Shown here in pieces: positions 17,371 through 54,896 of a stretch of 56,468 bases of DNA. The notes under the pieces are model-generated. The model was given only the letters and a program-made list of their open reading frames with translations. It was not told where the DNA came from and ran no database searches. The translations under genes were made by a program, and so were the position numbers. The DNA comes from Microbacteriaceae bacterium (lineage in GTDB: Bacteria > Actinomycetota > Actinomycetes > Actinomycetales > Microbacteriaceae): assembly GCA_035565115.1 (NCBI GenBank), contig DATMTC010000087.1:1-56468 (forward strand), in the 5' to 3' direction. How positions within the stretch are numbered: position 1 is the first letter of the stretch; each line of letters opens with the position of its first letter.

Positions 17371-17393
17371 AGAATCATACCATCGCGGCCGGG

Positions 17394-36471: not shown

Positions 36472-38573
36472 GCATCGACACGCATTGCCCGTACTGCGCT
36501 CTGCAGTGCGCGATGAACCTGAGCCCGAACCAGACCTTGGATGCCGCAACGCCACCCGTGACCGTTGCAGGACGCGCGTTCCCGACGAACCGAGGCGGCC
36601 TGTGCAAGAAGGGCTGGACATCCGCCGAGCTGCTGAATTCGCCTGATCGCGTCACGCAGCCGATGACACGCCAACCTGACGGCACGTTCCTTGCCACAGA
36701 CTGGACGAGCGCGCTCGACACGATCGCCGACCGGCTGCTGGCTTCGCGCGATGCACACGGTGCCGACTCGGTCGCCGTCTTCGGCGGTGGAGGGCTCACC
36801 AACGAGAAGGCGTATCAGCTCGGCAAGTTCGCTCGCATTGCCCTCGGCACGTCGCGCATCGACTACAACGGCCGATTCTGCATGTCATCCGCCGCCGCGG
36901 CCGGGACTCGGGCGTTCGGCATCGACCGTGGATTGCCGTTTCCGGTCGAGCACCTCGACAGTGCGACAACGATCATGCTGCTCGGCTCGAACGTCGCTGC
37001 AACCATGCCACCGTTCATCGGACACCTGGGCGGCGCTCGCGCATCCGGTGGGCTGATCGTCGTCGATCCACGCAGAAGCTCGACGGCGCGACTGACAGAA
37101 GACGGTGCAGGCCTCCACATCGCGCCGACCCCTGGCAGCGATCTGGTGCTGCTTCTCGGACTGATCCACATCGTCATAACCGAGCACCTGTACGACAAGG
37201 AGTACGTTGCGTCGCGGACCACCGGGTTCGACGCGTTGGCAGCCAGCGTCGGCCAATGGTGGCCGCATCGCGTGCAGTCTGCAACCGGAGTTCCCGTCGG
37301 TGTTCTCCGCGAGGTCGCGCGACGCCTCGCAGGCGACGGTGGCACCTACATTCTCACCGGACGCGGCGTAGAGCAGCACGTCGACGGAACAGACACCGCC
37401 ACCGCGGCGATCAATCTCAGCCTGCTTCTCGGTCTTCCCGGCAGCACCCACTCCGGCTACGGCACGCTGACCGGCCAGGGTAACGGCCAGGGCGGGCGCG
37501 AACACGGACAGAAGGCCGACCAGCTGCCCGGCTACCGCAAGCTCGCGGATCCGGCGGCCCGGAAACACGTCGCAGGGGTGTGGGGAGTCGACCCTGACTC
37601 ACTTCCAGGGCCAGGCATCCCAGCCACCGAGCTCCTCGACTCGATCGGCATGCCAGGCGGCGCACGCTGCCTGCTCGTGCACGGATCGAACGTCGTGGTC
37701 TCGGCACCGGATGCAGCAGAAGTGCGCTCCAAGCTCGGCAGGCTGGACCTCCTGGTGGTCTGCGACTTTTTCTTCTCTGAGACTGCGGCGCTCGCCGATT
37801 TCGTGCTTCCCGTCACGCAGTGGGCGGAGGAAGAAGGCACCATGACGTCGCTTGAGGGGCGAGTGATTCGGCGCAGGAAGGCGATCGACCCGCCGCCAGG
37901 CGTGCGCAGCGAACTGTGGATCATGCGCGAGCTGGCCTGGCGGCTGAAATCCCCCGGTGTGTTCAGCGCAGACCCTGCAGCCGTGTTCGACGAGCTGGCG
38001 CGCGCTTCTGCAGGCGGCGTTGCAGACTACTCGGGAATCAGCCACCAGCTTCTCGACACCGAGACGCCGGTCTTCTGGCCGTATCCGCCTGGATCGAACG
38101 GAACGCCACGCCTGTTCATCGATCGGTTCGGCCACGACGACGGACGCGCCCGGCTGGTCGCAGTCGCAGCTGCACCGCCACCTGAGCCGCTGTTCCAGAA
38201 CGGAATGCTCACGCTCATCACCGGCAGGCTGCTCGAGCACTACCAGTCTGGCGCCCAGACCAGGCGCGTGCCCGAGCTCAATGCTGCCCAACCGCACGCA
38301 CGCATGCAGATTCATCCCGTTACGGCCGCCGCGTTCGGCATCGCGCCGGAATCTGCTGTGGAGATCAGCAACATACGCGGGCGGGTGCGCTGCGTTGCGG
38401 ATGTCACGCCAGACATCAGGCAAGACACCGTGTTCCTGCCGTTTCATTACGCCGGTGACGAGTGCGCGAACGTACTGACCCAGAGCGCGATCGACCCGAC
38501 ATCCGGAATGCCCGAGTTCAAGACCACGGCCGTGCACCTGCGCGCGCTGTCACGCGAGGTGACACTGCGATGA
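36468..38573 (+). CDS. nasA: Assimilatory nitrate reductase catalytic molybdopterin subunit
   Basis: THCPYCALQC...LCKKG 4Fe-4S motif, NGRFCMSSAA, TGQGNGQGGREHG, molybdopterin dinucleotide C-terminal domain (DPTSGMPEFK). Confidence 0.93.
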   Translation: MSIDTHCPYCALQCAMNLSPNQTLDAATPPVTVAGRAFPTNRGGLCKKGWTSAELLNSPDRVTQPMTRQPDGTFLATDWTSALDTIADRLLASRDAHGADSVAVFGGGGLTNEKAYQLGKFARIALGTSRIDYNGRFCMSSAAAAGTRAFGIDRGLPFPVEHLDSATTIMLLGSNVAATMPPFIGHLGGARASGGLIVVDPRRSSTARLTEDGAGLHIAPTPGSDLVLLLGLIHIVITEHLYDKEYVASRTTGFDALAASVGQWWPHRVQSATGVPVGVLREVARRLAGDGGTYILTGRGVEQHVDGTDTATAAINLSLLLGLPGSTHSGYGTLTGQGNGQGGREHGQKADQLPGYRKLADPAARKHVAGVWGVDPDSLPGPGIPATELLDSIGMPGGARCLLVHGSNVVVSAPDAAEVRSKLGRLDLLVVCDFFFSETAALADFVLPVTQWAEEEGTMTSLEGRVIRRRKAIDPPPGVRSELWIMRELAWRLKSPGVFSADPAAVFDELARASAGGVADYSGISHQLLDTETPVFWPYPPGSNGTPRLFIDRFGHDDGRARLVAVAAAPPPEPLFQNGMLTLITGRLLEHYQSGAQTRRVPELNAAQPHARMQIHPVTAAAFGIAPESAVEISNIRGRVRCVADVTPDIRQDTVFLPFHYAGDECANVLTQSAIDPTSGMPEFKTTAVHLRALSREVTLR

Positions 38574-40123
38574 CGGTGCTGCGGGTTGTGCTCGTCGGAT
38601 ATGGGCCGGTCGGCGCCCGATTCGTCGAAGAACTCCTTCCTGCCGTGCGCACCGGCGCGATCGCCCTGACGGTGATCGGGGCGGAGCCGACCGATGCATA
38701 CAACCGGGTGCTGATCGCCGACTACGCGGCAGGCCGCACCGACCGCGACGCCCTCGCGATCACCGATGCGGATGCCGCAGTCGCCGCCGGCGTGCGATTC
38801 CAGACCGGAACGCGCGTGAGGAGCATCGACCGCACTGCATGCACCGTCACGCTGGATTCCGGCGCCATCGAACCATACGACCGGCTCGTGCTGGCCACAG
38901 GGGCGCGCGCCAATATTCCGACGCTCGCTGGCATCCGGCGTCCGGTTGCGACGGATGCTGCACTACCGCCGGGCGTGACGGTGCTGCGCGACATTGCAGA
39001 TGCCGAGCGTGTTCGAGTCGCCGTGCGCCATAAGGCACGCATCGTCGTGCTCGGCGCGGGTGTTCTCGGCCTGGAGATCGCATTGGCCGCCGCGACCCAA
39101 GGCGCCGATGTGCACATCGTGCACCACAACGGGTATCCGATGGCGCGCAACATCGACCGTGCAGGCGGAAGCGTGCTCGCGCGCAGTCTGCGCGCCGCAG
39201 GCGTGAACGTTGTGGCGCACAGCAGGGCCGAAAGTGTCGATTTCCGCACGGATGATCACGGCGTCTCCCGGTTCGACGCGCTGATCTGCGCGGACGGCAA
39301 GCGCATCACAGGCGACCTGCTGTTGCTTTCCTGCGGAGTAAGCGCGCGCATGGAACTCGCGACGCTCGCCAACCTGCCCACCTCGACCGGCATTCTCGTC
39401 GACACGCAGTTGCGCTCATGGGGCGACCGGCACGTCTTCGCGATCGGCGACTGCGCGCACGTCACAGACCTGAGCGAGCATGAACCGGATGCCCGGCCAC
39501 GCGGCGGGCCATCCGGCCTGATCGGCCCCGGCTGGCGACAGGCGGCATGGCTGGCGGCGAGCATGATCGCGGACGCGTCTGGCGAAGCGACTCCCCCACC
39601 GCTTGAGCCGGAAAAGGCGAGCGTCGTCATGCTGAAGGCCGACGACATCGATGTCGTGGCAGCAGGCAACGTCGACGCCGACCCGTGGGACGAGCCGGGA
39701 ACAGACTACTCGGCGCCCGCTGTGTCTCAATGGGCGGACCCGGAGCACGGCCGCTACGTGAAGATGGTCACCCGCGCAGGCGTTCTCGAGGGGATGGTCT
39801 GTGTTGGCATGCCAAGAACCGGGGCGGAGCTGACGCTGCTGTTCGAGCGCGGCAGCGAGCTGCCCGCCGATCGGTCCGTGCTGCTGCGACACGACGGTCC
39901 AGAGTCGACAGCCGTGACCGAAGCGTTCGAGGCGGACGCGACGGTGTGCTGGTGCAATGGCGTGAGTGCTGGCAGCATCCAGGAGTCGGTGAACGCCGGA
40001 TGCCGCACGACAGACGAGGTCGGAGCAGCCACCCGCGCTGGCACCGGTTGCGGAGGATGCAAGGGGCGCATCACCGAGCTGATCGCTCAGTTCGCCGCAC
40101 GCTCGACGGCGACGGTCAGCTGA
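38570..40123 (+). CDS. Assimilatory nitrate reductase electron-transfer subunit (FAD oxidoreductase plus BFD 2Fe-2S; NasC/NasB-like)
   Basis: VGYGPVG, YNRVL, GAGVLGLE, AIGDC, C-terminal VCWCNGV...AGTGCGGC. ATGA overlap with nasA. Confidence 0.88.
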   Translation: MTVLRVVLVGYGPVGARFVEELLPAVRTGAIALTVIGAEPTDAYNRVLIADYAAGRTDRDALAITDADAAVAAGVRFQTGTRVRSIDRTACTVTLDSGAIEPYDRLVLATGARANIPTLAGIRRPVATDAALPPGVTVLRDIADAERVRVAVRHKARIVVLGAGVLGLEIALAAATQGADVHIVHHNGYPMARNIDRAGGSVLARSLRAAGVNVVAHSRAESVDFRTDDHGVSRFDALICADGKRITGDLLLLSCGVSARMELATLANLPTSTGILVDTQLRSWGDRHVFAIGDCAHVTDLSEHEPDARPRGGPSGLIGPGWRQAAWLAASMIADASGEATPPPLEPEKASVVMLKADDIDVVAAGNVDADPWDEPGTDYSAPAVSQWADPEHGRYVKMVTRAGVLEGMVCVGMPRTGAELTLLFERGSELPADRSVLLRHDGPESTAVTEAFEADATVCWCNGVSAGSIQESVNAGCRTTDEVGAATRAGTGCGGCKGRITELIAQFAARSTATVS

Positions 40124-41727: not shown

Positions 41728-42390
41728 TCACGGGTAGCTCTTCAGTCCTGTTGCAAGCAACTCGAAAGCGTCGTCGCACTCCAGCAGACACAGCTTCGTC
41801 GCTCTGACCCCGTCCATGCCACCAAGCTGACGCGACTCGTTGACCAGAACAAGCGTCTGAACGACCGCCAGTATCTGCGCAACGACAGTGCGCACTCGTA
41901 CGGCATCCCGAGTGGGCGATTCGTTCGGAATCGACGCTCTTGGGACATCGGCCGCGTGCGAGACCGCGTCGATCAGGCTGCTTTCAAGCGCACGCCACTG
42001 GCGAGCGTATCCTGCCATGAGCGTTGGGCTGTCTCGAATCATTTTCGTGAATTTTTCGGCGCCCTCATGCAGTCCGGTCCATTCGGCCCTTCGCTCGAAT
42101 TCCGATCGGACGAAGTGGTGCACGGCATCCACGACGGAGCCGCGAGCAGGCAGCGCAGCGACCGCGCCAGCGAAATCCGGCAACGTTCCGTGCGTGAAGG
42201 CGAAGAACATGTCTTCTTTTGCCGGAAAGTAGTTGAAAACGGTCATCTTCGACACGCCGGCAGCACTGGCGATCTCGGCGATCGAGACTCGCTCGAATCC
42301 ACGCTCGACGAACAGCGCCAGCGCCGCGCGTGCGATCGCCGTGCGCGTTTGTTCCTTTTTCGATTCGCGCAGGCCCTGACTCGTGTTCAC
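41728..42390 (-). CDS. TetR family transcriptional regulator
   Basis: GLRESKKEQTR..IARAALALF.ERGF..VSIAEIA..AGVSKMTVFNYFPAKEDM helix-turn-helix. Confidence 0.95.
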   Translation of the reverse strand: MNTSQGLRESKKEQTRTAIARAALALFVERGFERVSIAEIASAAGVSKMTVFNYFPAKEDMFFAFTHGTLPDFAGAVAALPARGSVVDAVHHFVRSEFERRAEWTGLHEGAEKFTKMIRDSPTLMAGYARQWRALESSLIDAVSHAADVPRASIPNESPTRDAVRVRTVVAQILAVVQTLVLVNESRQLGGMDGVRATKLCLLECDDAFELLATGLKSYP

Positions 42391-42469
42391 TGTCCCAGGC
42401 TAGCAAGAAAGTTATGCCGCTCCCATATTTTTACTTGACCTATTTTTATGTTGATCATATATTGACGGG
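42391..42469. promoter_or_regulatory. Divergent tetR/MFS promoter-operator
   Basis: AT-rich. TTGACC(42435)-n17-TATATT(42458), 6 nt before the MFS GTG. TAGCCT lies 6 nt before the tetR GTG. Repeated tatttttaY and tatg..cata motifs. Confidence 0.7.
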
Positions 42470-43903
42470 GTGATGACACGACCGAACATCAGCATGACCA
42501 AGACTCAGGGAACCTGGGTGCTAGTGGCAGCCCTTGCCACACTGCTCGTCAGCATCCTCGACACCAATATCGTGACGTCCGTCGCGGTTCCGATCGCGCA
42601 ATCGCTGCAGCCGGATGATGGCGCGGCGGCGGTGCCATGGCTTCTTGCCGTGTATGCGCTGGCCGGCACTGTCGTGCAGCCGATCTACGGAAAACTCGCC
42701 GACACGATCGGCGTGCGCGCGGTCTTTCTCACCGCCGTCGGAGTGTTCGTTGCCGGTTCTGTGCTCTGCGGATTCGCGACCACAATGCCCGAGCTGATTG
42801 TGTTCCGCGGAATCCAGGGACTCGGCGGCGGCGGTCTGATGAGTGTGACAATGGTCGTCATCGGCCATCTCAGAGCCGAAGCTGAGTCACACGGTGAGCA
42901 GCAATCGAACAGCGGCAACGCCGTCGCAGCAGTTTTGGTGGGCGCGGGCCTCGTTGCCGGGCCGTTGGTCGGCGGCTTCATCGAACATCTGCTCGGGTGG
43001 CGTTGGATCTTCCTCATCAATGTGCCCCTCGGCCTGACCGCTCTCGTCATCATGGCCGTGGCACTCAAACTCCCGTTGGGGGCGGATCGCGGCACGATCG
43101 ATCCGGTCAGCGCGCTGTGCCTTGGAGTTGGCGCGGCAAGTCTGCTCGTCGTGTGCCAATGGGGCGGACGCCAGTTCGCGTGGACATCCTGGCAGATTAG
43201 CGCTGCGGCGATCGTCTGCATCGGCTCGATCTCCCTGTTCGCTTGGCGGCAGAAGACCGGGAGGAATCCGTTCTTCCCGCCTCGGCTGCTGTCGGAGCCG
43301 ACCCTGCGCATCGTCACATTTCTGCAACTGGCAAGCGGACTCGGCATGGCGGCCGGGATCGTCTACCTGACTCTCGATCTGCAGCTCGTGCACGGCCTCT
43401 CACCGGTTCAAACCGGTGTTCAGTTGATGCCGATCGCCGTCGGTCTCGGCATTGGCGCATGGCTCGGCACGCTCGTCACGCGCAAGGCACGCTCCTTGCG
43501 CGGTTCGATCGCACTCGGAGCGGCAGGCACGGCAGCGGCGCTTGGCGGATTCGCAGCCTGCGGAGCCGACACGCCGCTGATCGTTGTCTCGGCGATCATG
43601 GTCGTGTTCGGTGCGGGGCTTGGACTCGGCCTCGGGAACGAACTGCTCGTGATCTTCGCCGTCGTCGACCGGCGTGATCTGGGAGTCGCGACAACCGGCA
43701 TCCGGTTCGTCGAAACGCTGGGAACCTCACTGGGCGCGACCGCATTCGCGACGCTGTTCGCCGCTATCGCCACTGCTAGTTCGGATGCGGCGACGCAGGC
43801 GGGCGCGATCGAGATCATCTTCCTGATCGGGATGGTATTCATGGCCGCAGCGAGCGGGATCGCGTTACGCCTGCCGCACCCTGCATCACACCAGCCGGAG
43901 TGA
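42470..43903 (+). CDS. DHA2-type (EmrB/QacA-like) MFS efflux transporter
   Basis: LDTNIV, YGKLADTIG, FRGIQGLGGGGL, GPLVGG, GWRWIFLINVPLG. Confidence 0.9.
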   Translation: MMTRPNISMTKTQGTWVLVAALATLLVSILDTNIVTSVAVPIAQSLQPDDGAAAVPWLLAVYALAGTVVQPIYGKLADTIGVRAVFLTAVGVFVAGSVLCGFATTMPELIVFRGIQGLGGGGLMSVTMVVIGHLRAEAESHGEQQSNSGNAVAAVLVGAGLVAGPLVGGFIEHLLGWRWIFLINVPLGLTALVIMAVALKLPLGADRGTIDPVSALCLGVGAASLLVVCQWGGRQFAWTSWQISAAAIVCIGSISLFAWRQKTGRNPFFPPRLLSEPTLRIVTFLQLASGLGMAAGIVYLTLDLQLVHGLSPVQTGVQLMPIAVGLGIGAWLGTLVTRKARSLRGSIALGAAGTAAALGGFAACGADTPLIVVSAIMVVFGAGLGLGLGNELLVIFAVVDRRDLGVATTGIRFVETLGTSLGATAFATLFAAIATASSDAATQAGAIEIIFLIGMVFMAAASGIALRLPHPASHQPE

Positions 43904-45934
43904 CAGGCCGCGTGCTGCCTGAAGTCCCTGCGTCGTTGCCCGCACCGCGTCAACACCGCGGGCGTCGCGCGCGCCACCGACCAGCTCAAACGGTATGCCG
44001 GCACCGTCCAGCGCATACGCGAGCGGATCGTGTGCTTCCTGCCCAGCGCACACGATCACGTTCGCGGCTGGAATGAGCTCGATGCGACCATCGGCAAACT
44101 CGACTTCGACACCGCTCGGGGTGATCGCGCGGTAAGTCAGCTCTGACAGCATGCGAACGCCGGCTTCCCGAAGCGCGCCGATCGCCACCCAGCGCGAGGT
44201 GATGCCGATCCCTTGGCCGATGCGCCCCTGCCTGCGCAGGATCGTCACATCGCTGCCACGGCGTGGCGTGACCCGCGCGGCACTGCCACCGGTGCGCTCG
44301 TCCAGCAGCGCGGTCGAGCGCGTGAGGTCGAATCGCGACCCGAAGGCCGCTGCCCGCTCGCGCGGATCATGCGACTCGACAAGGTATGCAGCAACATCGA
44401 CACCGATGCCGCCACCGCCGATGATGGCCACGGTTCCTGCAGGCACCCCAGCGGTGATGGCCTGCTCATAGCTGAGCACGTGAGGAAGGTCAGCGCCGGG
44501 AATGTCGACATCCCGGGGCACGACACCGGTTGCCAGGATCACCCCGTCGAAGCCGCTGACAGTCTCGAGCGTCGCTGTGACACCCGTGCGGATGTCGGCG
44601 CCAAGCAGCCGCAAACGTTGCAGAGCGGATGCGGGCGTCCGTGCGTAGTCTTCCTTGCCCGGGATGCGAGAGGCAAGCGAGAACTGGCCTCCGAGCCAGT
44701 CTGCTGCCTCGAAGACGGTGACATTCTGGCCACGCTCAGCCAAATCGAGTGCCGCGGCGAGCCCTGCGGGTCCGGCCCCGACGACCGCGATACGCCTAGC
44801 ACCCGCGTCACGGCCCAGAGGGAACTCGCTCTCGCGTCCCGCGCGCGGATTCACCAGGCACGAGACGGGTTCGAACACCAAAGAGCGGTCGATGCATGCC
44901 TGGTCGCAGCCGATGCAGGTGTTCACCAGGCCGAAGTCGCCCGCGAAACTCCGTTGAATGATTCTCGGATCGGCCAGGAACGGCCTCGCGAGCGCAATCG
45001 CATCCACTCCCCCGCGTTCGAGTGCTTTCTCGGCTTCGCGCAGATCGGTGATGCGATTGCTAGCGATCACGGGAACGCGTCCCGAGACGGCCGCCCTGAT
45101 GCGCTCGGCGTAGCCGAGCCATGCGCCGTGCGGAACGGATGCTTGCACGGTCGGCACCGTCGACTCGTGCCAGCCCATGCCGATGCTCAACGCATCGGCG
45201 CCCGCAGCCACGAGCGCAATCGCGAGTGCATCGACCTCGTCTGCAGTCGACGAGCCCGGCATCAGGTCGTCCCCCGACATCCGAACCAGCACAGGCACGG
45301 ACTCCGGGATGGCCTCACGCACCGCACCGACGACGGCCACGGCGAACCGCCGGCGGCGTTCGGCATCGCCTCCCCACTCGTCGTCGCGCAGATTCGTCAG
45401 CGGCGAGCAGAACTGGTTGATCAGATAGCCCTCGGACGCCATGATCTCGACCGCGTCGAATCCGGCCGAGGTCGCGGCGGCGGCAGCGGCCGCGAAATCG
45501 GCGATCGTTGCCTGAATTTCGGCCTCGGTCAGCTCCCGAGGCACAGCGCCACGCGCCGCGCGCCATGGCACCGGAGATGGCGCGACGCTTTCACCGTTGA
45601 TGATCGCGTATCGGCCCGCGTGGAACAGCTGAGCCGCGATGCGACCACCGGCGTTATGCACGGCAGCAACGGCGACCGAGAACCGTTCGTGCGCATCCGG
45701 TGCACCGAGCACGGCATAGTCCGGCCCGCCACGGCCAACGGAATTGACGGCGAGTCCGCCCGTGATGATCAGTGCTGCTCCGCCTTCGACACGCTCGCGA
45801 TAGAACTCAGCGAGCGCCTTCCCGCCGTCTTCACGCGTCTCCAAGCCCGTGTGCATGCTGCCCATGACGATGCGATGCGGCAGTGGCAGGTGCCCGATCG
45901 ACCACGGCGTTTGCACGCGCGGCAGCAGCTCCAT
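43886..45934 (-). CDS. 2,4-dienoyl-CoA reductase-like flavoprotein (FadH fold; AnsM/PlmM-like)
   Basis: MGSMHTGLE, GFDAVEIMASEGYLINQF, ARPFLADP, CIGCDQACID...C 4Fe-4S motif, VGAGPAG. Last gene of the CHC-like operon. Confidence 0.9.
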   Translation of the reverse strand: MELLPRVQTPWSIGHLPLPHRIVMGSMHTGLETREDGGKALAEFYRERVEGGAALIITGGLAVNSVGRGGPDYAVLGAPDAHERFSVAVAAVHNAGGRIAAQLFHAGRYAIINGESVAPSPVPWRAARGAVPRELTEAEIQATIADFAAAAAAATSAGFDAVEIMASEGYLINQFCSPLTNLRDDEWGGDAERRRRFAVAVVGAVREAIPESVPVLVRMSGDDLMPGSSTADEVDALAIALVAAGADALSIGMGWHESTVPTVQASVPHGAWLGYAERIRAAVSGRVPVIASNRITDLREAEKALERGGVDAIALARPFLADPRIIQRSFAGDFGLVNTCIGCDQACIDRSLVFEPVSCLVNPRAGRESEFPLGRDAGARRIAVVGAGPAGLAAALDLAERGQNVTVFEAADWLGGQFSLASRIPGKEDYARTPASALQRLRLLGADIRTGVTATLETVSGFDGVILATGVVPRDVDIPGADLPHVLSYEQAITAGVPAGTVAIIGGGGIGVDVAAYLVESHDPRERAAAFGSRFDLTRSTALLDERTGGSAARVTPRRGSDVTILRRQGRIGQGIGITSRWVAIGALREAGVRMLSELTYRAITPSGVEVEFADGRIELIPAANVIVCAGQEAHDPLAYALDGAGIPFELVGGARDARGVDAVRATTQGLQAARGLSLRLV

Positions 45935-45942
45935 TCCGGCGC

Positions 45943-46782
45943 CTAACCGTCCTGCTGGTCGCCAGGTTCGCTCTGCTCGCCATACACGGCCGCGTGCAGG
46001 TCGCCCGTGGTGTCAGCCCAGAACGGCGGGGCCACGATGGTGAGTCCGCCGTCGACCGACAGCACCTGGCCTGTGATGTATCCAGCAGACGGCGAGAGCA
46101 GGAACTCGATGGCAGATGCCATGTCGTCTGCCGTGCCTGGGCGGCCAAGCGGCAGCTTCTCGATCACCGACTGCATGGGCGGGATGCCTGGTACCCGCTC
46201 GTAAAAGTACTCGAGCGAGTCAGTGTCGATCAGTCCGCCGTTGACGGCGTTCACCGTGATGTTCCTCGGGCCGAACTCGGTGGCCATGTACTTCATGTAC
46301 GACTCGCTCGCCGCTTTCGCGGCGCCGAGCGACGCGTATGTCGGGAACGCCCGAAGCGAACCATAGCTGGTGACGACGACGATGCGCCCACCGTTGTTCA
46401 TCAGGTCTGCTGCGCGCTGTGCGCCCAGCACGAATGAGCGCACGTTCATCGCCCAGCTGCGGTCGAGGTGGTGGAGTTTCAGCTGCGCAACCGGCTTGAA
46501 CGCGCTGGCCGCGGCATTCGCGACGAAGTAGTCCAGCTTGCCGTATCGCTCCTTCACCGTCGCGAACAGCGCGTCGATGTCATCCGGCTCCTCGATGTTC
46601 GCCTGCACGACGATGCCGTCGCCGCCTGCAGCGCGAACCTCTTCAAGCGCTTGCTCGGCGAGATGCTGATTCGTCTTGTAGTTGATCACCACGTTGGTGC
46701 CGCGCGCGGCGAGCTTGGACGCCAGCAGACGTCCGATGCCACGTGAGCTACCGGTGATGAGTGCGACGGGTGTTTCTGCCAT
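45943..46782 (-). CDS. chcA: 1-cyclohexenylcarbonyl-CoA reductase (SDR)
   Basis: SDR TGSSRGIG. Segments NAAASAFK, HHLDRS.AMN.R.FVLGAQ, SYGS.RA.PTYA.LG..KAA, VNAVNGGLID.DSLE.FY and DGGL.IVAPPF.AD match my recollection of Streptomyces collinus ChcA; operon context agrees. Confidence 0.85.
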   Translation of the reverse strand: MAETPVALITGSSRGIGRLLASKLAARGTNVVINYKTNQHLAEQALEEVRAAGGDGIVVQANIEEPDDIDALFATVKERYGKLDYFVANAAASAFKPVAQLKLHHLDRSWAMNVRSFVLGAQRAADLMNNGGRIVVVTSYGSLRAFPTYASLGAAKAASESYMKYMATEFGPRNITVNAVNGGLIDTDSLEYFYERVPGIPPMQSVIEKLPLGRPGTADDMASAIEFLLSPSAGYITGQVLSVDGGLTIVAPPFWADTTGDLHAAVYGEQSEPGDQQDG

Positions 46783-46809
46783 GGAAGTCGTTCTCCTCGT
46801 GAGTGCCAG

Positions 46810-47958
46810 CTAGTTATTGACGGCGCCGGTCAAGACGGCCCGTGCAACGATGAGTTTCTGAATCTCATTCGTTCCCTCTTCGAAGCGTTGGGCACGCGCG
46901 TCGCGGTACACCCGCTCGATCGGGTTGCGCTTCCAGTACCCGGATCCGCCGTGAATCTGCAGCGCCTTGTCTGTGACGCGCGTGAGCATGTCGACGGCGA
47001 CCATCTTGGACGCGCTCGAGAGCACGCCTGCATCCGGCGCATCCTCTTCGTATGCCCGGGCGGCCTGCAGCACGAGGGCCTTGGCTGCTGCGATGTCCGC
47101 ATAGTTCTCTGCGAGGTAGAACTGGATAGCCTGACGGGAGCTGAGCGTCTTGCCGAACGTTTCGCGGCGGTTGGCGTATTCGACCGCAAGTTCCTGCGCG
47201 CGCTCCGCAAGCCCGACGCAACTCATCGCGACGGAGACCCGGCTTGGCAGCAGGAAGCCGCCGAGCGCCACCTCGAGTCCCTGGCCTTCTTCCCCCAGCC
47301 GAGCCGAGACGGGAACCGGCGTGTTGTCGAAGCGCAGGATGGCGTGATCCGTGCCACGCACCCCCATCGTCTGCGAGTCGTCAATTACCTCGGCACCCGG
47401 CAGCCCCGTATTCGGCACCAGCAGTGCAACGGTGCCATCCTGACCTGTTGAGCCTTCCAGGCGCGCAGCGAGCAGCCAATAGTCGCACTTCACACCGAAT
47501 GTGATCAGGTGCTTCTCTCCGCTGAGGTAGTAGGTGTCGCCGTCGCGGCGCACGGTGCTTCTGATGTCTGCGCCCGTGCCCGCGGTCGCCTCGGTGAGGG
47601 TGAAGGCGACGAGCACGTCTCCTGCGATCGACGGCTTGACGACCTGGGCGATCTGCTCGTCGGTTGCGAACGGGGCCATGGCCCGCCAGGTGCCGTTGAT
47701 GACGTGCACGAGCATGCGGATCGACGCGTGCGAGCGCGAGATGATCTCCATCAGCTCGAGGTAGCGGCTGAACGGAATGCCTCTCCCGCCCAGCTCGACC
47801 GGCGCCGCCAGTGACAGATAGCCGCGCTCCTTGAGCTCAGCGAACAGTTCAGGCGGCACCTCGCCTGAGTCTTCGATTTGGTTCGCGAACTCTTCACCGC
47901 GGGTGCGAACCCACTGGTCGATCTCGGTCTTCAACGCCTCGAACTGCTCGTCGCTCAT
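46810..47958 (-). CDS. Acyl-CoA dehydrogenase family protein (AnsL/PlmL-like)
   Basis: FTLTEATAGTG, GEKHLITFG, RETFGK, ALQIHGGSGY, RDAR..RFEEGTNEIQ. ATG 47958 overlaps the upstream TGA. Confidence 0.9.
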   Translation of the reverse strand: MSDEQFEALKTEIDQWVRTRGEEFANQIEDSGEVPPELFAELKERGYLSLAAPVELGGRGIPFSRYLELMEIISRSHASIRMLVHVINGTWRAMAPFATDEQIAQVVKPSIAGDVLVAFTLTEATAGTGADIRSTVRRDGDTYYLSGEKHLITFGVKCDYWLLAARLEGSTGQDGTVALLVPNTGLPGAEVIDDSQTMGVRGTDHAILRFDNTPVPVSARLGEEGQGLEVALGGFLLPSRVSVAMSCVGLAERAQELAVEYANRRETFGKTLSSRQAIQFYLAENYADIAAAKALVLQAARAYEEDAPDAGVLSSASKMVAVDMLTRVTDKALQIHGGSGYWKRNPIERVYRDARAQRFEEGTNEIQKLIVARAVLTGAVNN

Positions 47959-50900
47959 CTGGTCTCCTTCTGCGAAGCGACGAGCGTCGCTGCACGCTCT
48001 CGCAATATGTTCTTCTGAATCTTGCCGATCGGGTTGCGCGGAAGCGCATCGATGAACTCGAGGCGTTCCGGCCAGTAATACTTGGAAACGCCTGCTCGTG
48101 CAAGGTAATCCTGCATCTGCGCGAACCCGAGACGCGAATCCGACTGCGCAGCGACCACGAACGCACACGCGCGCTCCCCGAGCCGCTCGTCAGGCATGCC
48201 GACGATGGCCACGTCAGTGACAAGCGGATGCTGGTACAGCAGGTTCTCGATCTCGACGACAGGGATCTTCTCGCCACCGCGGTTGATCACGTCTTTCACA
48301 CGACCTGTGATGTGCAGAAAACCGGCCTCGTCTGTGACCGCGAGGTCGCCTGTTCGGTACCAGCCGTCCGGGGTGAACACATCTGCGGTCAAGTCTGGGC
48401 GTTCCAGGTACCCACCGAACACGGTCGGCGAGTGCAGCTCGTAGTTGCCCTCTGTTCCCGGCGGAACTTCGTTGCCGTTGTCATCGACGATGCGGATGCG
48501 GATGCCGGGCAGCGGACGCCCGTCTGTCCCCCACGCATCCTCGGGCCGGTCGCCTGGGGCAGAAAGCGTTCCGAGGCAGGTCTCTGTTGTGCCGAACGCT
48601 CCGAGAACCGCTGCGCCAAGCACACTCGTCGCCTTTTGGGCAAGCGTGCGAGGCACGGCAGCACCTGTCGCCACGAAGATCCGCAGCGATTCAGGGGCGG
48701 CAGACCCGTTTTCGACGAGTGCGACCAGGTCGGTCAAGAACGGCGTTGCTGCCTGCACGAATGTGGCTTTCGCCTCGCCGAACGCTTGGGTCAGCGACAG
48801 CTGAGCATCCCACACCGGCTGGATGATGAGCGCGACCTTGAGCCGCCATGCGAGCAGCATGCCGTACAAAAACCCGGTCTGATGGGCTAACGGAGACGGT
48901 GCGTAGATGCGGTCGTCGCCGCCGAGCGACAAATGCTGCACCTCCATGGCAGTGGCCAGTCCCAGGCTGCGGTATGTCTGCTGAACGCCCTTCGGTTCAC
49001 CGGTCGTCCCCGACGTGAACAGCAGCTGGCAGTAGTCATCCGGCCGTGGCGACCTGGATGCGATCAGCGACGGGTCGACGGTGACAGATGCCAGGGCGGT
49101 GTCGTAGTAGTGCCACGACCATTCGCTCGCGCGTGCTGCGTCGATCGCCCAGTCGGGTATCGGTGCGACCTCGACCGTGCCGTCGGTTCCATGCCGGCTG
49201 TTCTCCCTGAGCACGATCACGTGCTCGAGGTCGAGCCTGCGCTTCTGTGACTTCGCCTCGTCGATCACCTCGAGCAGTTCGACCATCGGGTACCGCTTGC
49301 GGAAATAGTCAGGCAAGAACAGCACGCGCGCATGCGAACGGGCAAGAACCATCGTGGTTTCGCGCGGGCCGAAAACCGGCATGATCGGCGTCACGACGGC
49401 GCCGATCTGCATGGCTCCGAGGGCGATGGAGACGAATTCGCTCCAGTTCGGCAGCTGAACGGCGACAGCTTCGCCTCGCTCTACGCCGAGTTCGAGCAGC
49501 AGGGCAGACACGCGGTCTGCCTCCGCCTTGACTTCTGCCCAGCTCTGGCTGACCGGATGCGAGTTGCCAACCTCGATCACGGCGGGCTCGTCAGGCGTCG
49601 CAGCTGCAGCATCCGCAACCGCCTCGCTTAGAACGAGAGGTTCGGCCGCGGCGCCAAGCTGAGCCTCGACGTCACGAGCGTCAAGCTCGCCGTTCGCCGC
49701 CTCGGCTTCTTCCTCGCCGAGCGGCTCGCCGATAGCCATGTCGAGACCGACCGAGTTCATGGCCTCGAGGAACGTCGGGTATGAGATGCGGTATGCCCGC
49801 GGATAGGTCAACGATGATGTGCCGTCTGCACGTGTTGCGGCCACCGCGAGCGACATGAGCACCCGATGATCGTTGAACGACGACATTGCGGCACCGTCGA
49901 GCGAGTCGACGCCCGTGATGCGCAGTTCGTCGGTGGACTGCTCGACCTTTCCACCCATGCGGTTCAGCTGCAGCATGGCCGCGACCCGGTCTGACTCTTT
50001 CAGCCTGATGTGTCCGACGTTGTGCAGCCGGCTTGTTCCATCGGCGAACGTCGCCATTGCCGACAGGATCGGCAGCAGATCTGGGATCGGCTTGCAGTCG
50101 ATGTCGATCGCCTTTAACCGGATGCCGTCGTGCCGGATGCGCACGAACCCTGTTGCCGGATCGGTTTCCATCGGAACGCCCATCTCCGCTGCCAGATCCA
50201 GGAACTCCGCCTCTGGGTGATCGGTGTCTGCCGCCCGCGTCGCGGTCATTCCGCGCAGCAGCACGTCTGAGGGATGCAGCGCTGCAGCGGCGACCCCGAA
50301 TGCGGCAGAGCCGATGTCGGGCGGAATCGTGTAGTCGGCGGGCGTCGCGGTCTGGTTGCCGCGGATGGTGTAAGTCAGCCAGTCATCCGAATGCTCGACA
50401 ATCAGGCCGAAGTGCCGCATCATTCGAATCGTCAGATCGACGTACGGCTGCTCGTTGAGCTTGCCGCCGGTGATGTGGATGGTTGTGTCTCCCGTCGCGA
50501 AAGGGGCGACGAGCAGCAACCCGCTCAGCCACTGGGACAGCGTGCCTGCAATGCTGACCTCACCGCCTGTCGGACGGATCGGCTGCACCGTGATCGGCGG
50601 GCAGTCGTTCGTGCTCGTCAGCGAGATGCCCATCTGCTGAAGGGAATCGAGAAGCGCCTTGATGGGGCGGCGACGGAAGTATTTCATCCCGGTGAGCGTG
50701 ATCGGCTTGTCTGCGAGCGCCGCGAGCCCTGTCATGAAGTACAGCGTTGTGCCTGACGACCCAACGTTGAGCACGCCGTCTGGTCCGCTCGAGCCGCGTT
50801 CGACGGTTTCCGAGGCCGCGTAGCGCCCACCTGTGACGATGTACGCGCCGTTCTCGATGCGGATGTCCGTTCCGAGCGCCCTGAGCACGCTGGTTGTCCA

Positions 50901-51053
50901 CTCGACTTGCCTGGTGGAAGACAGCCCAGTGATGACGCTTGTGCCCGGCGCAAGCGAGGCGAGCACAAGAGCCCGGTGGGCGTGATATTTGGATACCGGA
51001 ATGTCCAGGTCCCCGACGAGCCGAGTCTCACTTCCACGCACCATCAGTTGCAC
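47955..51053 (-). CDS. AroA(EPSP synthase)-like domain fused to an acyl-CoA ligase (PlmJK/AnsJ+AnsK-like)
   Basis: N-terminal EPSPS fold (PVSKY..R, GSSGTT, RRP, KESDR, NDHR) in frame with an ANL adenylation domain (FTSGTTGEPKG, FGTTE, WYRTGDL, GRVKDVINRGGEK, GKIQK). GTG 51053 follows a GGAAAGG RBS. Confidence 0.9.
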   Translation of the reverse strand: MQLMVRGSETRLVGDLDIPVSKYHAHRALVLASLAPGTSVITGLSSTRQVEWTTSVLRALGTDIRIENGAYIVTGGRYAASETVERGSSGPDGVLNVGSSGTTLYFMTGLAALADKPITLTGMKYFRRRPIKALLDSLQQMGISLTSTNDCPPITVQPIRPTGGEVSIAGTLSQWLSGLLLVAPFATGDTTIHITGGKLNEQPYVDLTIRMMRHFGLIVEHSDDWLTYTIRGNQTATPADYTIPPDIGSAAFGVAAAALHPSDVLLRGMTATRAADTDHPEAEFLDLAAEMGVPMETDPATGFVRIRHDGIRLKAIDIDCKPIPDLLPILSAMATFADGTSRLHNVGHIRLKESDRVAAMLQLNRMGGKVEQSTDELRITGVDSLDGAAMSSFNDHRVLMSLAVAATRADGTSSLTYPRAYRISYPTFLEAMNSVGLDMAIGEPLGEEEAEAANGELDARDVEAQLGAAAEPLVLSEAVADAAAATPDEPAVIEVGNSHPVSQSWAEVKAEADRVSALLLELGVERGEAVAVQLPNWSEFVSIALGAMQIGAVVTPIMPVFGPRETTMVLARSHARVLFLPDYFRKRYPMVELLEVIDEAKSQKRRLDLEHVIVLRENSRHGTDGTVEVAPIPDWAIDAARASEWSWHYYDTALASVTVDPSLIASRSPRPDDYCQLLFTSGTTGEPKGVQQTYRSLGLATAMEVQHLSLGGDDRIYAPSPLAHQTGFLYGMLLAWRLKVALIIQPVWDAQLSLTQAFGEAKATFVQAATPFLTDLVALVENGSAAPESLRIFVATGAAVPRTLAQKATSVLGAAVLGAFGTTETCLGTLSAPGDRPEDAWGTDGRPLPGIRIRIVDDNGNEVPPGTEGNYELHSPTVFGGYLERPDLTADVFTPDGWYRTGDLAVTDEAGFLHITGRVKDVINRGGEKIPVVEIENLLYQHPLVTDVAIVGMPDERLGERACAFVVAAQSDSRLGFAQMQDYLARAGVSKYYWPERLEFIDALPRNPIGKIQKNILRERAATLVASQKETR

Positions 51054-51212: not shown

Positions 51213-52358
51213 ATGCAGATCAGCTTCGCACAGTCTGAGCGTTCCACGCTCGGCGTCGAGTGGGAGCTCGCACTTGTTGACAAGTCGACGGGCGATCTGG
51301 TGCAGATCGCCGACGATGTGCTGCGCGAGCTGGGAACAGACGGCGACGAGCATCCGCAGATCACCCACGAGCTGCTGCTCAACACGATCGAACTGGTGAG
51401 CAGGGTGCATCATCGCGTCGACGAGACAGTCGATGACCTTCGCGAGCTCATCGCGCTTGTGCAGACCGTCACCGATCCGCTTGACGTCGAGCTGATGTGT
51501 GCTGGCACGCATCCGTCCGCCCAGTGGTTCGACCAGCAGGTCACCCAGAACGACCGATATGACAGACTCGTCGAGCGCACGCAATGGTGGGGCAGGCAGA
51601 TGCTGATCTGGGGCATCCACGTGCACGTCGGGGTCGAAGACAGAGACAAGGTCCTTCCCCTGGTCAACGGGCTGCTGAGCTACTTTCCGCACCTGCAGTC
51701 GCTCAGTGCGTCAAGCCCGTTCTGGGGCGGTGCGAAAACCGGGTACGCCTCGAACCGCGCGCTCATGTTCCAGCAGCTGCCAACGGCGGGGCTGCCATAC
51801 CAGTTCGGCAGTTGGGCGAATTACGAGCAGTACGTTCAGGACCTCGTGACAACGGGCGTCGTGCGTGACTACACGGAGGTGCGCTGGGACATTCGGCCGT
51901 CTCCACACTGGGGCACTGTTGAGATGCGCGCCTGTGACGGGTTGTCGACGCCGGAAGAGATCTCAGCTGTCGCCGCGGTCATCCAATGCCTTGTCGAATG
52001 GTTGTCGACGCGGATCGATAACGGTGAGCAGCTGGAGAACTTGCAGCCGTGGTTCGTGCGTGAGAACAAGTGGCGGGCAGCACGCTACGGCATGGACGCG
52101 ACGATCATCGTGAATCCGGCCGGGGACGAACGACCTGTGGCAGACGACATCCGCGACGTGCTCGTGACGCTGGCACCGGTCGCCGAGCGGCTCGGTTGCG
52201 CGGCCGATCTTGACCGCGTGAACCTGATTCTCGACAACGGCGCCAGCTATCAACGTCAACTGCGGGTCGCAGCAGCCAACGGTGGCAGCCTGCAGGCTGT
52301 GGTCAGTTCGCTAACACGGGAACTTCGGAACGGACTGGTCGCAGGGCCGCTGCGATGA
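51213..52358 (+). CDS. Glutamate--cysteine ligase GCS2 / YbdK carboxylate-amine ligase
   Basis: TLGVEWEL, ELLLNTIE, GTHP, GIHVHVG, SASSPFW, WDIRP, TVEMRACD, ENKWRAARYG. Confidence 0.93.
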   Translation: MQISFAQSERSTLGVEWELALVDKSTGDLVQIADDVLRELGTDGDEHPQITHELLLNTIELVSRVHHRVDETVDDLRELIALVQTVTDPLDVELMCAGTHPSAQWFDQQVTQNDRYDRLVERTQWWGRQMLIWGIHVHVGVEDRDKVLPLVNGLLSYFPHLQSLSASSPFWGGAKTGYASNRALMFQQLPTAGLPYQFGSWANYEQYVQDLVTTGVVRDYTEVRWDIRPSPHWGTVEMRACDGLSTPEEISAVAAVIQCLVEWLSTRIDNGEQLENLQPWFVRENKWRAARYGMDATIIVNPAGDERPVADDIRDVLVTLAPVAERLGCAADLDRVNLILDNGASYQRQLRVAAANGGSLQAVVSSLTRELRNGLVAGPLR

Positions 52359-52887
52359 TCGGTGCGAACGTCGCGACCAGCGCGATCATTTGCACGATCC
52401 CGGCTGGAACACCGCCGACGAAACTCGCGACGGCCATGATGATGGCTGCGACCGGAACCCACACGGCAACGATCTTGGCGCGCCGCAGCCCGATGGTCAG
52501 CGCGATCGGGCCTGCCGCGAATGCGATGAGGAAGACGATCAACAGCACGTTTCCGATGGCGCTGTCGTCTTGCGCATGTGGTGCGCCGAAGAACAGTGCA
52601 AGGTGACCAACGCCTGCCGCCAATCCGATCGCGGTCACCAGGCATCCGGTGAACGTCAGAACCCATCCCCGTGCCCGCGCCAGCTGCACTACGGCAGGGA
52701 TCCCGAGCAGCCAGATCAGTGGACCGAAGACACTGATCACAGCGACGACAGCGAACAGAACTGATGATGGATCCGGTTGTGGTGTCCACTGCAGCATCGT
52801 TGCCGCGATGAGGCTGAGCGGTCCGATCACGAGACAGCTGACACCGACCATGCTGAGGGTGCGCTCGCGCACCGGTGATTCGTTCAT
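52303..52887 (-). CDS. Hypothetical integral membrane protein
   Basis: 194 aa with about 6 TM helices; GGAAAGGAAG RBS; divergent from the two-component system. Confidence 0.75.
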   Translation of the reverse strand: MNESPVRERTLSMVGVSCLVIGPLSLIAATMLQWTPQPDPSSVLFAVVAVISVFGPLIWLLGIPAVVQLARARGWVLTFTGCLVTAIGLAAGVGHLALFFGAPHAQDDSAIGNVLLIVFLIAFAAGPIALTIGLRRAKIVAVWVPVAAIIMAVASFVGGVPAGIVQMIALVATFAPIIAAALRPVRSEVPVLAN

Positions 52888-52991
52888 GTCTTCTTCCTTT
52901 CCTGCGGTGTCAGCTGGCGACAGCTGCGCCGATACAACGAGCGTGCATCAGCTGCGAGCGGTGCCGCGTCTGCCGGTCTGAGGATCTTTCG

Positions 52992-53040
52992 TCGCCCGTT
53001 CGGCGGAACATACTCGCCCGTTCGGGCGATGCCGTTCGGG
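52992..53040. promoter_or_regulatory. Candidate response-regulator operator
   Basis: tcgcccgttcgg repeated at 52992 and 53014 (22-bp spacing). The second copy forms the palindrome tcgccc-gttc-gggcga. A partial third copy starts at 53031. Confidence 0.6.
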
Positions 53041-53064
53041 CGCCACCGGCAATAGAGTGATGGA

Positions 53065-54228
53065 ATGTTCGAGCTGGCCGATCGGCTGCGACGACGACGG
53101 ATGGCCGGCCTGCCTGCCACCGACATTCTGCTTGCGCTCGCCATGGGCACCGTGGCCGTGGCCAGCGTGCTGACCGGCAACCCGAATGAGGGCCCGATCG
53201 CACTCACGCTTCCCGTTGCGCTTGTGGCCGCCGGCGCGCTGGCCTGGAGACGCAAAGCTCCTGTGGCCGCGGTCATCGCGCTGGCCGTGAGCGGCACCGT
53301 TCAATCGATTCTCGCTGCAGGGCCGGGGTCGCTGTGGTCGCTCGCAGTGTACGCCATCGTCATGTATTCGGTTGCCGCATACTACCGAGAGGGCATGGCG
53401 GCCGTCGTCGGTATCGTTCTTCTTGCGGCCCTGCTCGCGCAGGAACGCATTGACAACGGGGTCGACTACCTGTTCGTCGTGCTCTTGTTCGGAGGGCTCT
53501 GGCTGCTTGGGCGAGCCAGCAGGCTCTGGCGCGGCCGGGTGTCGCGTGCCGAACAGCATCAAGACGATCTTGCTCGCATCGCGGTTGCCGAGGAACGCGT
53601 GCGGATCGCCCGCGAACTGCACGACATCGTCGCCCATAGCCTCAGCGTGATCGCGGTGCAGGCTGACGCAGCAGACGCTGCGCTCGGTTCACAGCCGGAG
53701 CGAGCACGCGAACCCGTCCGCGTGATCAAGGCGAGCGCTCGGGACTCTCTCGGCGACATCCGCAGGCTTCTGCATGCACTGCGCACCGACGACGAGTCCT
53801 GGCAGCCATCCGGGCAGCCAGCGCCTGGCCTTGCTGCCCTTGATGCCCTTCTGAACGGCGTGCGGTCGGCCGGCGTGCCGATCGAGGCAGAGACAGACGA
53901 CTGCGCGGGGATCAACGCGGTAGTCGACCTGGCCGCGTACCGAATCGTGCAGGAGTCACTCACCAACGTCATCACACACGCGGGCGGTATGCCGACGACG
54001 GTCCGCATCGAGCGCACGCCGATCGCCCTCGACATCGAGATCAGTAACCGGCGGCCCTCCCATGAACGTTCCTCCCCCGGTTCCGGTCTCGGCCTGATCG
54101 GAATCAGAGAGCGCGTCACGGCCCTCGGCGGCACGCTCAGCGCCGGCGAGACAAACGACGGCATGTACCGAGTGCGCGCCATGCTGCCGCTGGCCGCGAC
54201 CACAACGGCTGCGGGAAACACATCATGA
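53065..54228 (+). CDS. Membrane sensor histidine kinase (HisKA_3)
   Basis: TM region, ERVRIARELHDIVAHSLS, AYRIVQESLTNV, GLGLIGIRERV. Leaderless TAGAGT -10. Confidence 0.95.
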   Translation: MFELADRLRRRRMAGLPATDILLALAMGTVAVASVLTGNPNEGPIALTLPVALVAAGALAWRRKAPVAAVIALAVSGTVQSILAAGPGSLWSLAVYAIVMYSVAAYYREGMAAVVGIVLLAALLAQERIDNGVDYLFVVLLFGGLWLLGRASRLWRGRVSRAEQHQDDLARIAVAEERVRIARELHDIVAHSLSVIAVQADAADAALGSQPERAREPVRVIKASARDSLGDIRRLLHALRTDDESWQPSGQPAPGLAALDALLNGVRSAGVPIEAETDDCAGINAVVDLAAYRIVQESLTNVITHAGGMPTTVRIERTPIALDIEISNRRPSHERSSPGSGLGLIGIRERVTALGGTLSAGETNDGMYRVRAMLPLAATTTAAGNTS

Positions 54229-54896
54229 CCTCCGTGCTGCTCGTCGACGACCAACGGCTGGTTCGCACCGGTTTTCGGCTGATTCTCGATCTCGAGCCCG
54301 ACCTGACCGTCGTCGGCGAAGCATCCGATGGCGCAGAGTGCCTGCAGCTGACCGCACGAGAAGATCCAGACGTCGTGCTGATGGACATCAGGATGCCGGT
54401 GCTGGACGGGATTGAGACCACCAGGCGACTTGTCGATTCCGGGTCACGGGCGAAGATCCTCGTTCTGACCACGTTCGACCTCGACGAGTACGTCTACGAG
54501 GCCATGCTGGCAGGCGCGAACGGCTTTCTGCTCAAGGATGCACCCAGGGAACAACTCACCGCGGCGATTCGCGCGGTGGCCGCCGGGGACGCACTGCTGG
54601 CACCGTCGGTCACCAGACGCCTCATCGAGAGATTCGTCGACCACAGATCACCGAACGCGACACGCCCTGATCTCGCCAGTCTGCTGACGCCACGAGAGGT
54701 CGAGGTTTTGCGTCTGGTCACGCGCGGACACACCAACGCCGAGATCGCCAGAGCGCTCTTCGTCGAGGAGTCAACGGTGAAAACACACGTTGCGCGGCTG
54801 TTGGCGAAGCTCGGAGTGCGCGACCGCATTCAGGCGGTAATCTTCGCCTACGAGACCGGATTCATCCAGCCAACAGGGTTGGAAGAGATCCCCTAG
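54225..54896 (+). CDS. NarL/LuxR family response regulator
   Basis: LVDDQ, DVVLMDIRMP, LTTFD, FLLKD, LTPREVEVL...TVKTHV. Confidence 0.96.
   Translation: MTSVLLVDDQRLVRTGFRLILDLEPDLTVVGEASDGAECLQLTAREDPDVVLMDIRMPVLDGIETTRRLVDSGSRAKILVLTTFDLDEYVYEAMLAGANGFLLKDAPREQLTAAIRAVAAGDALLAPSVTRRLIERFVDHRSPNATRPDLASLLTPREVEVLRLVTRGHTNAEIARALFVEESTVKTHVARLLAKLGVRDRIQAVIFAYETGFIQPTGLEEIP

What the first reader, a model, noticed from the sequence alone, without database searches (positions are those of the whole stretch)
43886..51053. Stand-alone cyclohexanecarboxyl-CoA (CHC-CoA) operon without a PKS: candidate omega-cyclohexyl fatty acid pathway in a Microbacteriaceae-like genome
Seen: four tightly spaced co-oriented genes (ATGA overlap, 27-bp and 8-bp gaps) encoding an AroA-like/acyl-CoA ligase fusion, an acyl-CoA dehydrogenase, an SDR and a FadH-like reductase. 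Established: Streptomyces ansJ-ansK-ansL-chcA-ansM (ansatrienin) and plmJK-plmL-chcA-plmM (phoslactomycin) convert shikimate to CHC-CoA with this content and order, embedded in polyketide clusters. Omega-cyclohexyl fatty acids primed by CHC-CoA are major lipids in Alicyclobacillus and in some Microbacteriaceae (Curtobacterium pusillum, Humibacter, Gryllotalpicola). Inference: here the module sits among housekeeping genes (rpsP...ffh) with no PKS/NRPS in the window, so it most plausibly feeds FabH for membrane lipids, possibly for acid or heat tolerance. I do not know of the genetic basis of this trait being characterised in this family. Automated annotation would likely scatter these genes as aroA/fadH/fabL.
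Basis: partly seen in the sequence, partly recalled or inferred. Interest (0 to 1): 0.88.

Follow-up and report, generated by a model that had tools for sequence, protein, structure and literature searches.

The report
Stand-alone cyclohexyl lipid starter operon
An uncultured soil actinobacterium carries a full copy of the four genes that Streptomyces uses to turn shikimate into cyclohexanecarboxyl-CoA, and, as no polyketide or peptide assembly line was found in its draft genome, the product most likely starts membrane fatty acids that end in a cyclohexane ring.

Summary
Observation confirmed: four co-oriented genes (AroA-like/CoA-ligase fusion, ACAD-like, SDR, FadH-like) with the stated spacing. 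They are orthologs of the Streptomyces CHC-CoA cassette: SDR 58-60% identical to MycA2/AnsA2/AsuB3; an ansatrienin-type cluster matches all four at 50-65% against about 30% for paralogs. The 89%-complete genome shows one ketosynthase, one ACP and no condensation domain, so type II fatty-acid synthesis is the likely sink. The marker domain occurs in 50 of 400 family genomes, often between ffh and rpsP. Carriers include Curtobacterium pusillum and Cellulomonas timonensis (cyclohexyl acids reported) and Subtercola/Herbiconiux strains rich in MIDI 'summed feature 8', probably the same lipid misnamed; Herbiconiux solani is a counter-example. New lead: an unlinked second FabH has close orthologs in 25 of 50 carriers and 1 of 350 others. 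The heat/acid-tolerance idea is unsupported. The chemistry is known, and this scan found the same cassette before on other DNA (e1-5277314 and six more notes). Verdict: new member of a known kind.

The parts
47955..51053 (-). AroA-like domain (aa 1-435) fused to an acyl-CoA ligase (aa 480-1020); PlmJK/AnsJ+AnsK type
   Evidence: Pfam; 55% over 1026 aa to the fusion of ansatrienin-type locus L020; EPSPS fold, pLDDT 89.9, TM 0.84; remodelled active site
46810..47958 (-). Acyl-CoA dehydrogenase-like flavoprotein, PlmL/AnsL type; likely the FAD-dependent dehydratase
   Evidence: Pfam; 65% to L020 ortholog, next paralog 29%; R-F-E-E-G-T-N at 358-364 in 93 of 94 aligned rows, one gap
45943..46782 (-). 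ChcA-type 1-cyclohexenylcarbonyl-CoA reductase (SDR)
   Evidence: 60% to MycA2 and AnsA2, 58% to AsuB3, best hit of each in the genome; YxxxxxxK (Y149, K156) in 77 of 77 rows
43886..45934 (-). FadH-like dienoyl-CoA reductase, PlmM/AnsM type
   Evidence: Pfam; 50% to L020 ortholog; four Cys (340, 343, 347, 359) in 75 of 75 rows
42470..43903 (+). MFS efflux-type transporter, convergent, overlaps the operon end by 18 bp; not part of the cassette
   Evidence: Pfam; no ortholog in 19 family loci, one 26% match
41728..42390 (-). TetR regulator divergent from the MFS gene; not part of the cassette
   Evidence: Pfam; no match in 19 family loci
51216..52358 (+). GCS2/YbdK carboxylate-amine ligase, divergent neighbour, resident of the ffh-rpsP interval
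   Evidence: beside ffh also in operon-negative genomes

Best explanation
The four genes are orthologs of the Streptomyces cassette for cyclohexanecarboxyl-CoA (CHC-CoA) and likely make CHC-CoA from shikimate, which a FabH likely uses as primer for omega-cyclohexyl fatty acids. Shown here: gene content, order, orthology, conserved site, no modular PKS/NRPS found. Inferred from the known pathway: the ligase domain makes shikimoyl-CoA, the ACAD-like flavoprotein removes water, the FadH-like and ChcA reductases saturate the ring, and FabH plus five rounds of type II elongation give 11-cyclohexylundecanoate. The AroA-like domain is probably not a housekeeping EPSP synthase (a separate aroA exists; five active-site positions are changed) and probably binds unphosphorylated shikimate or a pathway intermediate. 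The priming FabH may be the unlinked second FabH (G000:C213) or the one in the fab cluster.
For: Orthology. Known function of the cassette: PMC13304725 and PMC5852498 passages. CHC-CoA primes omega-cyclohexyl fatty acids in S. nodosus subsp. asukaensis, 3.1% of the total (PMC4147253 passage). Only acyl-chain machinery found in G000: one full KS, one ACP, two FabH, no condensation domain; no condensation domain and no KS in a frame over 614 aa in 5 of 5 relatives, two of them in one contig. A FabF-like KS lies within 10 kb in 28 of 80 distant loci and FabH in 2 of 80; the one FabF-like protein tested passes the fabF cut-off. Phenotypes of carriers: C. pusillum; Cellulomonas timonensis SN7, 1.0% cyclohexylundecanoic acid by GC-MS (L064); Subtercola endophyticus 76.7% and S. 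lobariae 52.1% summed feature 8; all 4 Herbiconiux strains with more than 10% summed feature 8, of 9 in the table, belong to species with the ACAD ortholog.
Against: No lipid or expression data for this organism. Genome 88.8% complete in 553 contigs. Reading summed feature 8 as cyclohexyl-C17:0 is recalled; no paper I could read states it. H. solani has the ACAD and AroA-like genes but no summed feature 8 in the table. S. frigoramans (40.4%) and S. boreus (11.8%) have the feature but were not among the named hits listed (listings capped at 120 of 768 and 120 of 1670; not tested). C. timonensis lacks the SDR in its locus and the acid is a library match at 1%. Best NCBIfam match of the ligase is catabolic AliA, though far below cut-off. 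Some copies elsewhere sit in ansatrienin-type or NRPS clusters (L020, L057). No Alicyclobacillus copy appeared among named hits.
Confidence: 0.85

Rival explanations
1. CHC-CoA (or a partly reduced intermediate) is made but goes mainly into a small exported or cell-envelope product through a stand-alone acyltransferase or type III enzyme, not into bulk membrane lipid.
For: An MFS exporter and TetR abut the operon; known cassettes feed natural products; 11% of the genome is missing; H. solani shows no matching fatty acid.
Against: MFS/TetR not conserved in 19 family loci; no PKS/NRPS in G000 or 5 relatives; carriers show the lipid or the suspected peak. Type III PKS was not searched for.
Confidence: 0.09
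2. Catabolic operon for cyclohexane carboxylate or hydroaromatic acids (bad-ali type).
For: Top NCBIfam model for the ligase is AliA TIGR03208, 437 bits; JGI names several homologs cyclohexanecarboxylate-CoA ligase.
Against: 437 against cut-off 792; AliB model 126 against 575; no hydratase or ring-hydrolase gene in the operon, which bad-ali needs (PMC9795900 passages); two reductases and an AroA-like domain; 50-65% identity to a biosynthetic cassette.
Confidence: 0.03
3. The operon is intact but silent or minor in this organism, with no substantial lipid output.
For: Patchy distribution and losses inside genera; 1% in C. timonensis, none listed for H. solani.
Against: All four frames intact with family-invariant residues; present in 3 of 3 other genomes of the genus.
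Confidence: 0.03

Closest known systems
CHC-CoA cassette of ansatrienin/mycotrienin (MycA1-A4; ansJ-ansK-ansL-chcA-ansM recalled), phoslactomycin/lactomycin (plmJK-plmL-chcA-plmM, pnP1-4, lmP1-4) and asukamycin (AsuB3 seen; asuB1-B4 recalled)
   Same: Same four enzymes, same order, fused first gene as in PlmJK; 50-65% identity.
   Different: No PKS, NRPS or AHBA genes nearby or in the genome; sits in the ffh-rpsP interval; likely sink is fatty-acid synthesis.
Omega-cyclohexyl fatty-acid synthesis in Alicyclobacillus, Sulfobacillus, Curtobacterium pusillum and S. nodosus subsp. asukaensis
   Same: Same proposed starter and product; shikimate origin (PMC4378227, PMC4147253 passages).
   Different: No gene-level account for Microbacteriaceae found in my searches; whether Alicyclobacillus uses this cassette was not tested.
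bad-ali catabolic cluster (AliA, AliB, BadK, BadH, BadI)
   Same: A CoA ligase closest by HMM to AliA and an ACAD-family protein.
   Different: Both far below cut-off; no BadK or BadI; has reductases and an AroA-like domain.
EPSP synthase (AroA)
   Same: Fold (TM 0.84), passes the TIGR01356 cut-off, keeps K22, R27, R129, Q174, D325, E353, R356, H396, R397.
   Different: Y23, Y105, L172, E201 and I423 replace S, R, S, S and K of true EPSPS; fused to a ligase; a separate aroA is present.

Membership tests
CHC-CoA biosynthetic cassette (Plm/Ans/Myc/Asu) | AroA-like + ligase, ACAD-like, ChcA-type SDR and dienoyl-CoA reductase in one operon, in this order | tested here: met
   order as in PMC5852498 table
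CHC-CoA biosynthetic cassette (Plm/Ans/Myc/Asu) | Orthology to characterised members | tested here: met
   SDR against MycA2, AnsA2, AsuB3 directly (58-60%); the other three only through locus L020, whose SDR is 91% identical to MycA2. PlmJK, PlmL and PlmM themselves were not in hand.
CHC-CoA biosynthetic cassette (Plm/Ans/Myc/Asu) | Converts shikimate to CHC-CoA | not testable with these tools
   needs enzyme assay
CHC-using polyketide cluster | PKS/NRPS that accepts CHC-CoA | tested here: not met
   one KS, one ACP, no condensation domain in G000, 88.8% complete; 5 relatives likewise without modular systems
Omega-cyclohexyl fatty-acid producers | Omega-cyclohexyl acids in the membrane | not testable with these tools
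   uncultured; relatives only
Omega-cyclohexyl fatty-acid producers | Operon presence tracks the lipid across strains | tested here: inconclusive
   positives match in 2 species with the named lipid and 6 with summed feature 8; 1 counter-example; no named negative genomes could be checked
bad-ali catabolic pathway | AliA and AliB above family cut-off, with BadK/BadH/BadI | tested here: not met
   no such neighbours; the related ring-hydrolase model TIGR03200 has no match over cut-off in G000, BadI's own model not run
EPSP synthase (AroA) | EPSPS fold and HMM cut-off | tested here: met
EPSP synthase (AroA) | Intact shikimate-3-phosphate and PEP binding residues | tested here: not met
   five positions differ from 8umj and from the genome's own AroA and are fixed in 98-99 of 99 family rows; residue roles recalled from E. 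coli AroA

The most novel reading that the evidence does not exclude
This operon is the missing genetic basis of cyclohexyl lipids across Microbacteriaceae, and the 'C18:1 w7c' that makes up to 77% of the fatty acids of cold-adapted Subtercola and of several Herbiconiux is really omega-cyclohexyl-C17:0; a dedicated unlinked FabH primes it in part of the family, and the remodelled AroA domain carries out a reaction not yet described for that fold. A lipid taught as a heat-and-acid adaptation would then dominate membranes of cold-soil and plant bacteria.
Probability: 0.3. Interest if true: 0.7.

Novelty: new member of a known kind. Interest (0 to 1): 0.45.

Why it matters
It gives a four-gene marker that predicts a membrane lipid long used in taxonomy and makes its function testable by deletion in culturable, harmless relatives. 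It predicts that published MIDI profiles of several genera are misread. It supplies natural CHC-CoA cassettes outside antibiotic clusters (CHC-CoA is the doramectin starter, PMC10295569 passage) and a candidate CHC-CoA-preferring FabH. It also flags an annotation trap: the fusion passes the aroA cut-off and is named so in databases.

Tried and rejected
The 2020 ACS Catalysis reconstitution paper is not held; I saw only its title in a reference list. Ten paper searches gave no paper that ties these genes to lipids in Microbacteriaceae and none that states the MIDI confusion; most taxonomic journals are not in the library, so this is weak. PMC6113628 (first 300,000 of 687,349 characters) and PMC6780079 gave nothing useful. 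Lacisediminihabitans profunda has no summed feature 8, but whether it has the operon is unknown, so it was not counted. No match in plasmids. Profile search of cluster representatives plus one naming call (10 of 150 looked up) named no Alicyclobacillus or Sulfobacillus protein. Promoter/terminator scan was at chance level. No tRNA in the window. No RNA holder listed; 20 of 24 listed runs hold the DNA, those labelled are soil metagenomes. The ffh tree of 61 genomes is poorly resolved (9 of 58 branches starred) and cannot separate gain from loss. MFS/TetR as part of the system: rejected, not conserved. The second FabH does not group with the cassette-adjacent FabHs of L040 and L078 and has no conserved neighbours.
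Full report
1. Observation. Pfam gives EPSP synthase + AMP-binding for the 1032-aa fusion, acyl-CoA dehydrogenase, SDR, and Oxidored_FMN + Pyr_redox_2. Base composition matches the neighbours. The window is contig C87 of a 3.25-Mb, 88.8%-complete assembly; labelled runs that hold the DNA are soil metagenomes. The closest named homologs are Microbacteriaceae: for the AroA-like part Humibacter albus 81%, Subtercola 78-79%, 'Rathayibacter soli' 77%, Curtobacterium 72-76%, Frondihabitans, Gryllotalpicola.

2. Orthology. A scan of species genomes with a 17-sequence alignment found 579 matching stretches, of which the best 80 were returned. Loci L020 and L027 have the same layout; L020 carries a DegT aminotransferase, a Gfo/Idh/MocA oxidoreductase, a ROK kinase, an A-T-TE protein, a DAHP synthase and a LuxR regulator, the gene set described for ansatrienin in PMC13304725 (passages), and its SDR is 91% identical to MycA2. 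The four L020 proteins hit the window's genes best, at 55, 65, 61 and 50%, with next paralogs at 29-32%; MycA2, AnsA2 and AsuB3 hit the window SDR at 60, 60 and 58%. The plmJK-plmL-chcA-plmM order is in the gene table of PMC5852498 (passages). PlmJK, PlmL and PlmM were not compared directly.

3. Sink. G000 has one full ketosynthase, in the fab cluster on C72, plus two weak 51-position matches, one ACP, no condensation domain and two FabH above cut-off. Five relatives, two in a single contig, have no condensation domain and one or two full KS matches in frames of 438-614 aa. So no modular PKS or NRPS is found. CHC-CoA is a known primer of omega-cyclohexyl fatty acids in an asukamycin producer (PMC4147253 passage). 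Of the 80 distant loci, 28 have a FabF-like KS within the fetched 10 kb and 2 a FabH; 49 have all four genes, 12 lack the SDR, 9 the FadH-like gene, and 10 show neither (8 of them cut short downstream).

4. Distribution. The AroA-like domain is in 50 of 400 family genomes at least 90% complete, 16 of 95 genera counting G000, whole-genus in some (3/3, 8/8) and patchy in others (1/8, 1/6); in two genera it is a separate gene. All 18 loci fetched hold the four genes; 8 of 19 family loci lie between ffh and rpsP, and one operon-negative genome has ffh directly followed by rpsP (G361). Carriers are scattered on an ffh tree of 61 genomes, with weak support. No plasmid copy was found.

5. Phenotype in relatives. 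For: C. pusillum has the genes and cyclohexyl fatty acid (PMC3426160 passage). Cellulomonas timonensis SN7 has three of the genes (L064) and 1.0% cyclohexylundecanoic acid by GC-MS (PMC5913061 passage). Subtercola endophyticus and S. lobariae have the fusion and 76.7% and 52.1% MIDI summed feature 8 (PMC9287328 passages). In the nine-strain Herbiconiux table the four strains above 10% (aconitum 28.1, ginsengi 43.6, daphne 12.7, moechotypicola 11.5) all belong to species with the ACAD ortholog, and the genus description says cyclohexyl-C17:0 may be present (PMC10011130 passages and supplement part 1 of 2). That MIDI reports cyclohexyl-C17:0 as C18:1 w7c is my recall. Against: H. solani has the genes and no such peak; S. 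frigoramans and S. boreus have the peak and were not among the listed hits; H. flava, gentiana and oxytropis (0-1.7%) were not listed either, which capped listings cannot turn into absence. Cyclohexyl acids in Humibacter and Gryllotalpicola are recalled, from no call. Heat or acid tolerance is claimed for Alicyclobacillus (PMC10562698 passages) but S. endophyticus grows at 4-25 C.

6. Second FabH. G000:C213:6321-7313 is a full FabH apart from the fab cluster. In the same 400 genomes, matches at 58% or more occur in 26; 25 of these are among the 50 operon carriers, in six genera, and 1 among the 350 others (five candidates scored per genome). Eleven sampled copies from carriers form a 99/99 clade that excludes the two sampled from non-carriers. 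Half of the carriers lack it, it has no fixed neighbours, and kin are not independent, so it is a lead, not a part.

7. AroA-like domain. The model is confident (pLDDT 89.9) and matches EPSPS structures (TM 0.84). It passes the aroA cut-off, but the genome has a separate aroA on C498. Against 8umj and that aroA, the domain keeps K22, R27, R129, Q174, E353, R356, H396 and R397 (D325 matches 8umj) and replaces S, R, S, S and K by Y23, Y105, L172, E201 and I423, fixed in 98-99 of 99 rows. By recalled E. coli roles, two of these bind the substrate phosphate, and a glutamate there would repel it. Strong conservation argues for a function; which one is open.

8. Mechanism. Shikimate is likely activated by the ligase, dehydrated by the ACAD-like flavoprotein, reduced by the FadH-like enzyme and ChcA to CHC-CoA, and extended five times by type II synthesis to 11-cyclohexylundecanoate. 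The title of Skyrud et al. 2020 (seen only in a reference list) names a shikimoyl-CoA synthetase and an FAD-dependent dehydratase; assigning them to these genes is inference. Catabolism is unlikely: AliA and AliB models score far below cut-off and the hydratase and hydrolase of bad-ali (PMC9795900 passages) are missing from the operon.

9. Novelty. The cassette and chemistry are known. [quoted passage not shown] Ten library searches found no gene-level link for Microbacteriaceae; taxonomic journals are mostly not held. This scan's earlier notes describe the same stand-alone cassette in other genomes, one at the same ffh-rpsP site; I had reached my reading before that look-up, and none was returned for the second FabH. 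Verdict: new member of a known kind, interest 0.45.

Noticed in passing
G000:C213:6321-7313 (L108:3319-4293, minus): Second, free-standing FabH whose close orthologs occur in 25 of 50 operon-positive and 1 of 350 operon-negative family genomes; candidate CHC-CoA-priming enzyme.
   Followed up: partly
L011-L039 and others (e.g. L015:17210-18439): Many Streptomyces, some other actinobacteria, an Acidothermus, a Vulcanimicrobiota and a Rhodanobacteraceae genome carry the cassette with an adjacent FabF-like KS sharing an ASALACASG motif in most; 28 of 80 loci.
   Followed up: partly
L046, L048, L049, L052-L054, L056, L060, L064, L066, L067, L081: Arthrobacter and Cellulomonas copies lack the ChcA-type SDR; nine other loci lack the FadH-like gene. 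Natural three-gene variants.
   Followed up: no
L057:2263-8791 and 17286-18479: In Lentzea alba the cassette lies beside NRPS genes, a TauD dioxygenase and a divergent KS: possibly an undescribed CHC-containing product.
   Followed up: no
window 35065-40123: Nitrate assimilation block: NarK-type transporter, molybdopterin nitrate reductase-like subunit and FAD-dependent partner (named from sequence look, not scanned); homologs also flank rimM in L087, L092, L107.
   Followed up: no
window 41728-43903: Divergent TetR/MFS efflux pair inserted between the operon and rpsP, with an AT-rich spacer and a 10/12 sigma-70-like site at 42435-42463; not in 19 related loci.
   Followed up: partly
window 52303-54896: Membrane protein without Pfam match plus two-component pair downstream of ffh; shared with L090.
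   Followed up: no
G000:C373:4800-4952 and 11517-11669: Two equal-scoring weak ketoacyl-synt matches in 441-aa frames on opposite strands of one contig; a duplicated thiolase-like gene or an assembly inversion.
   Followed up: no
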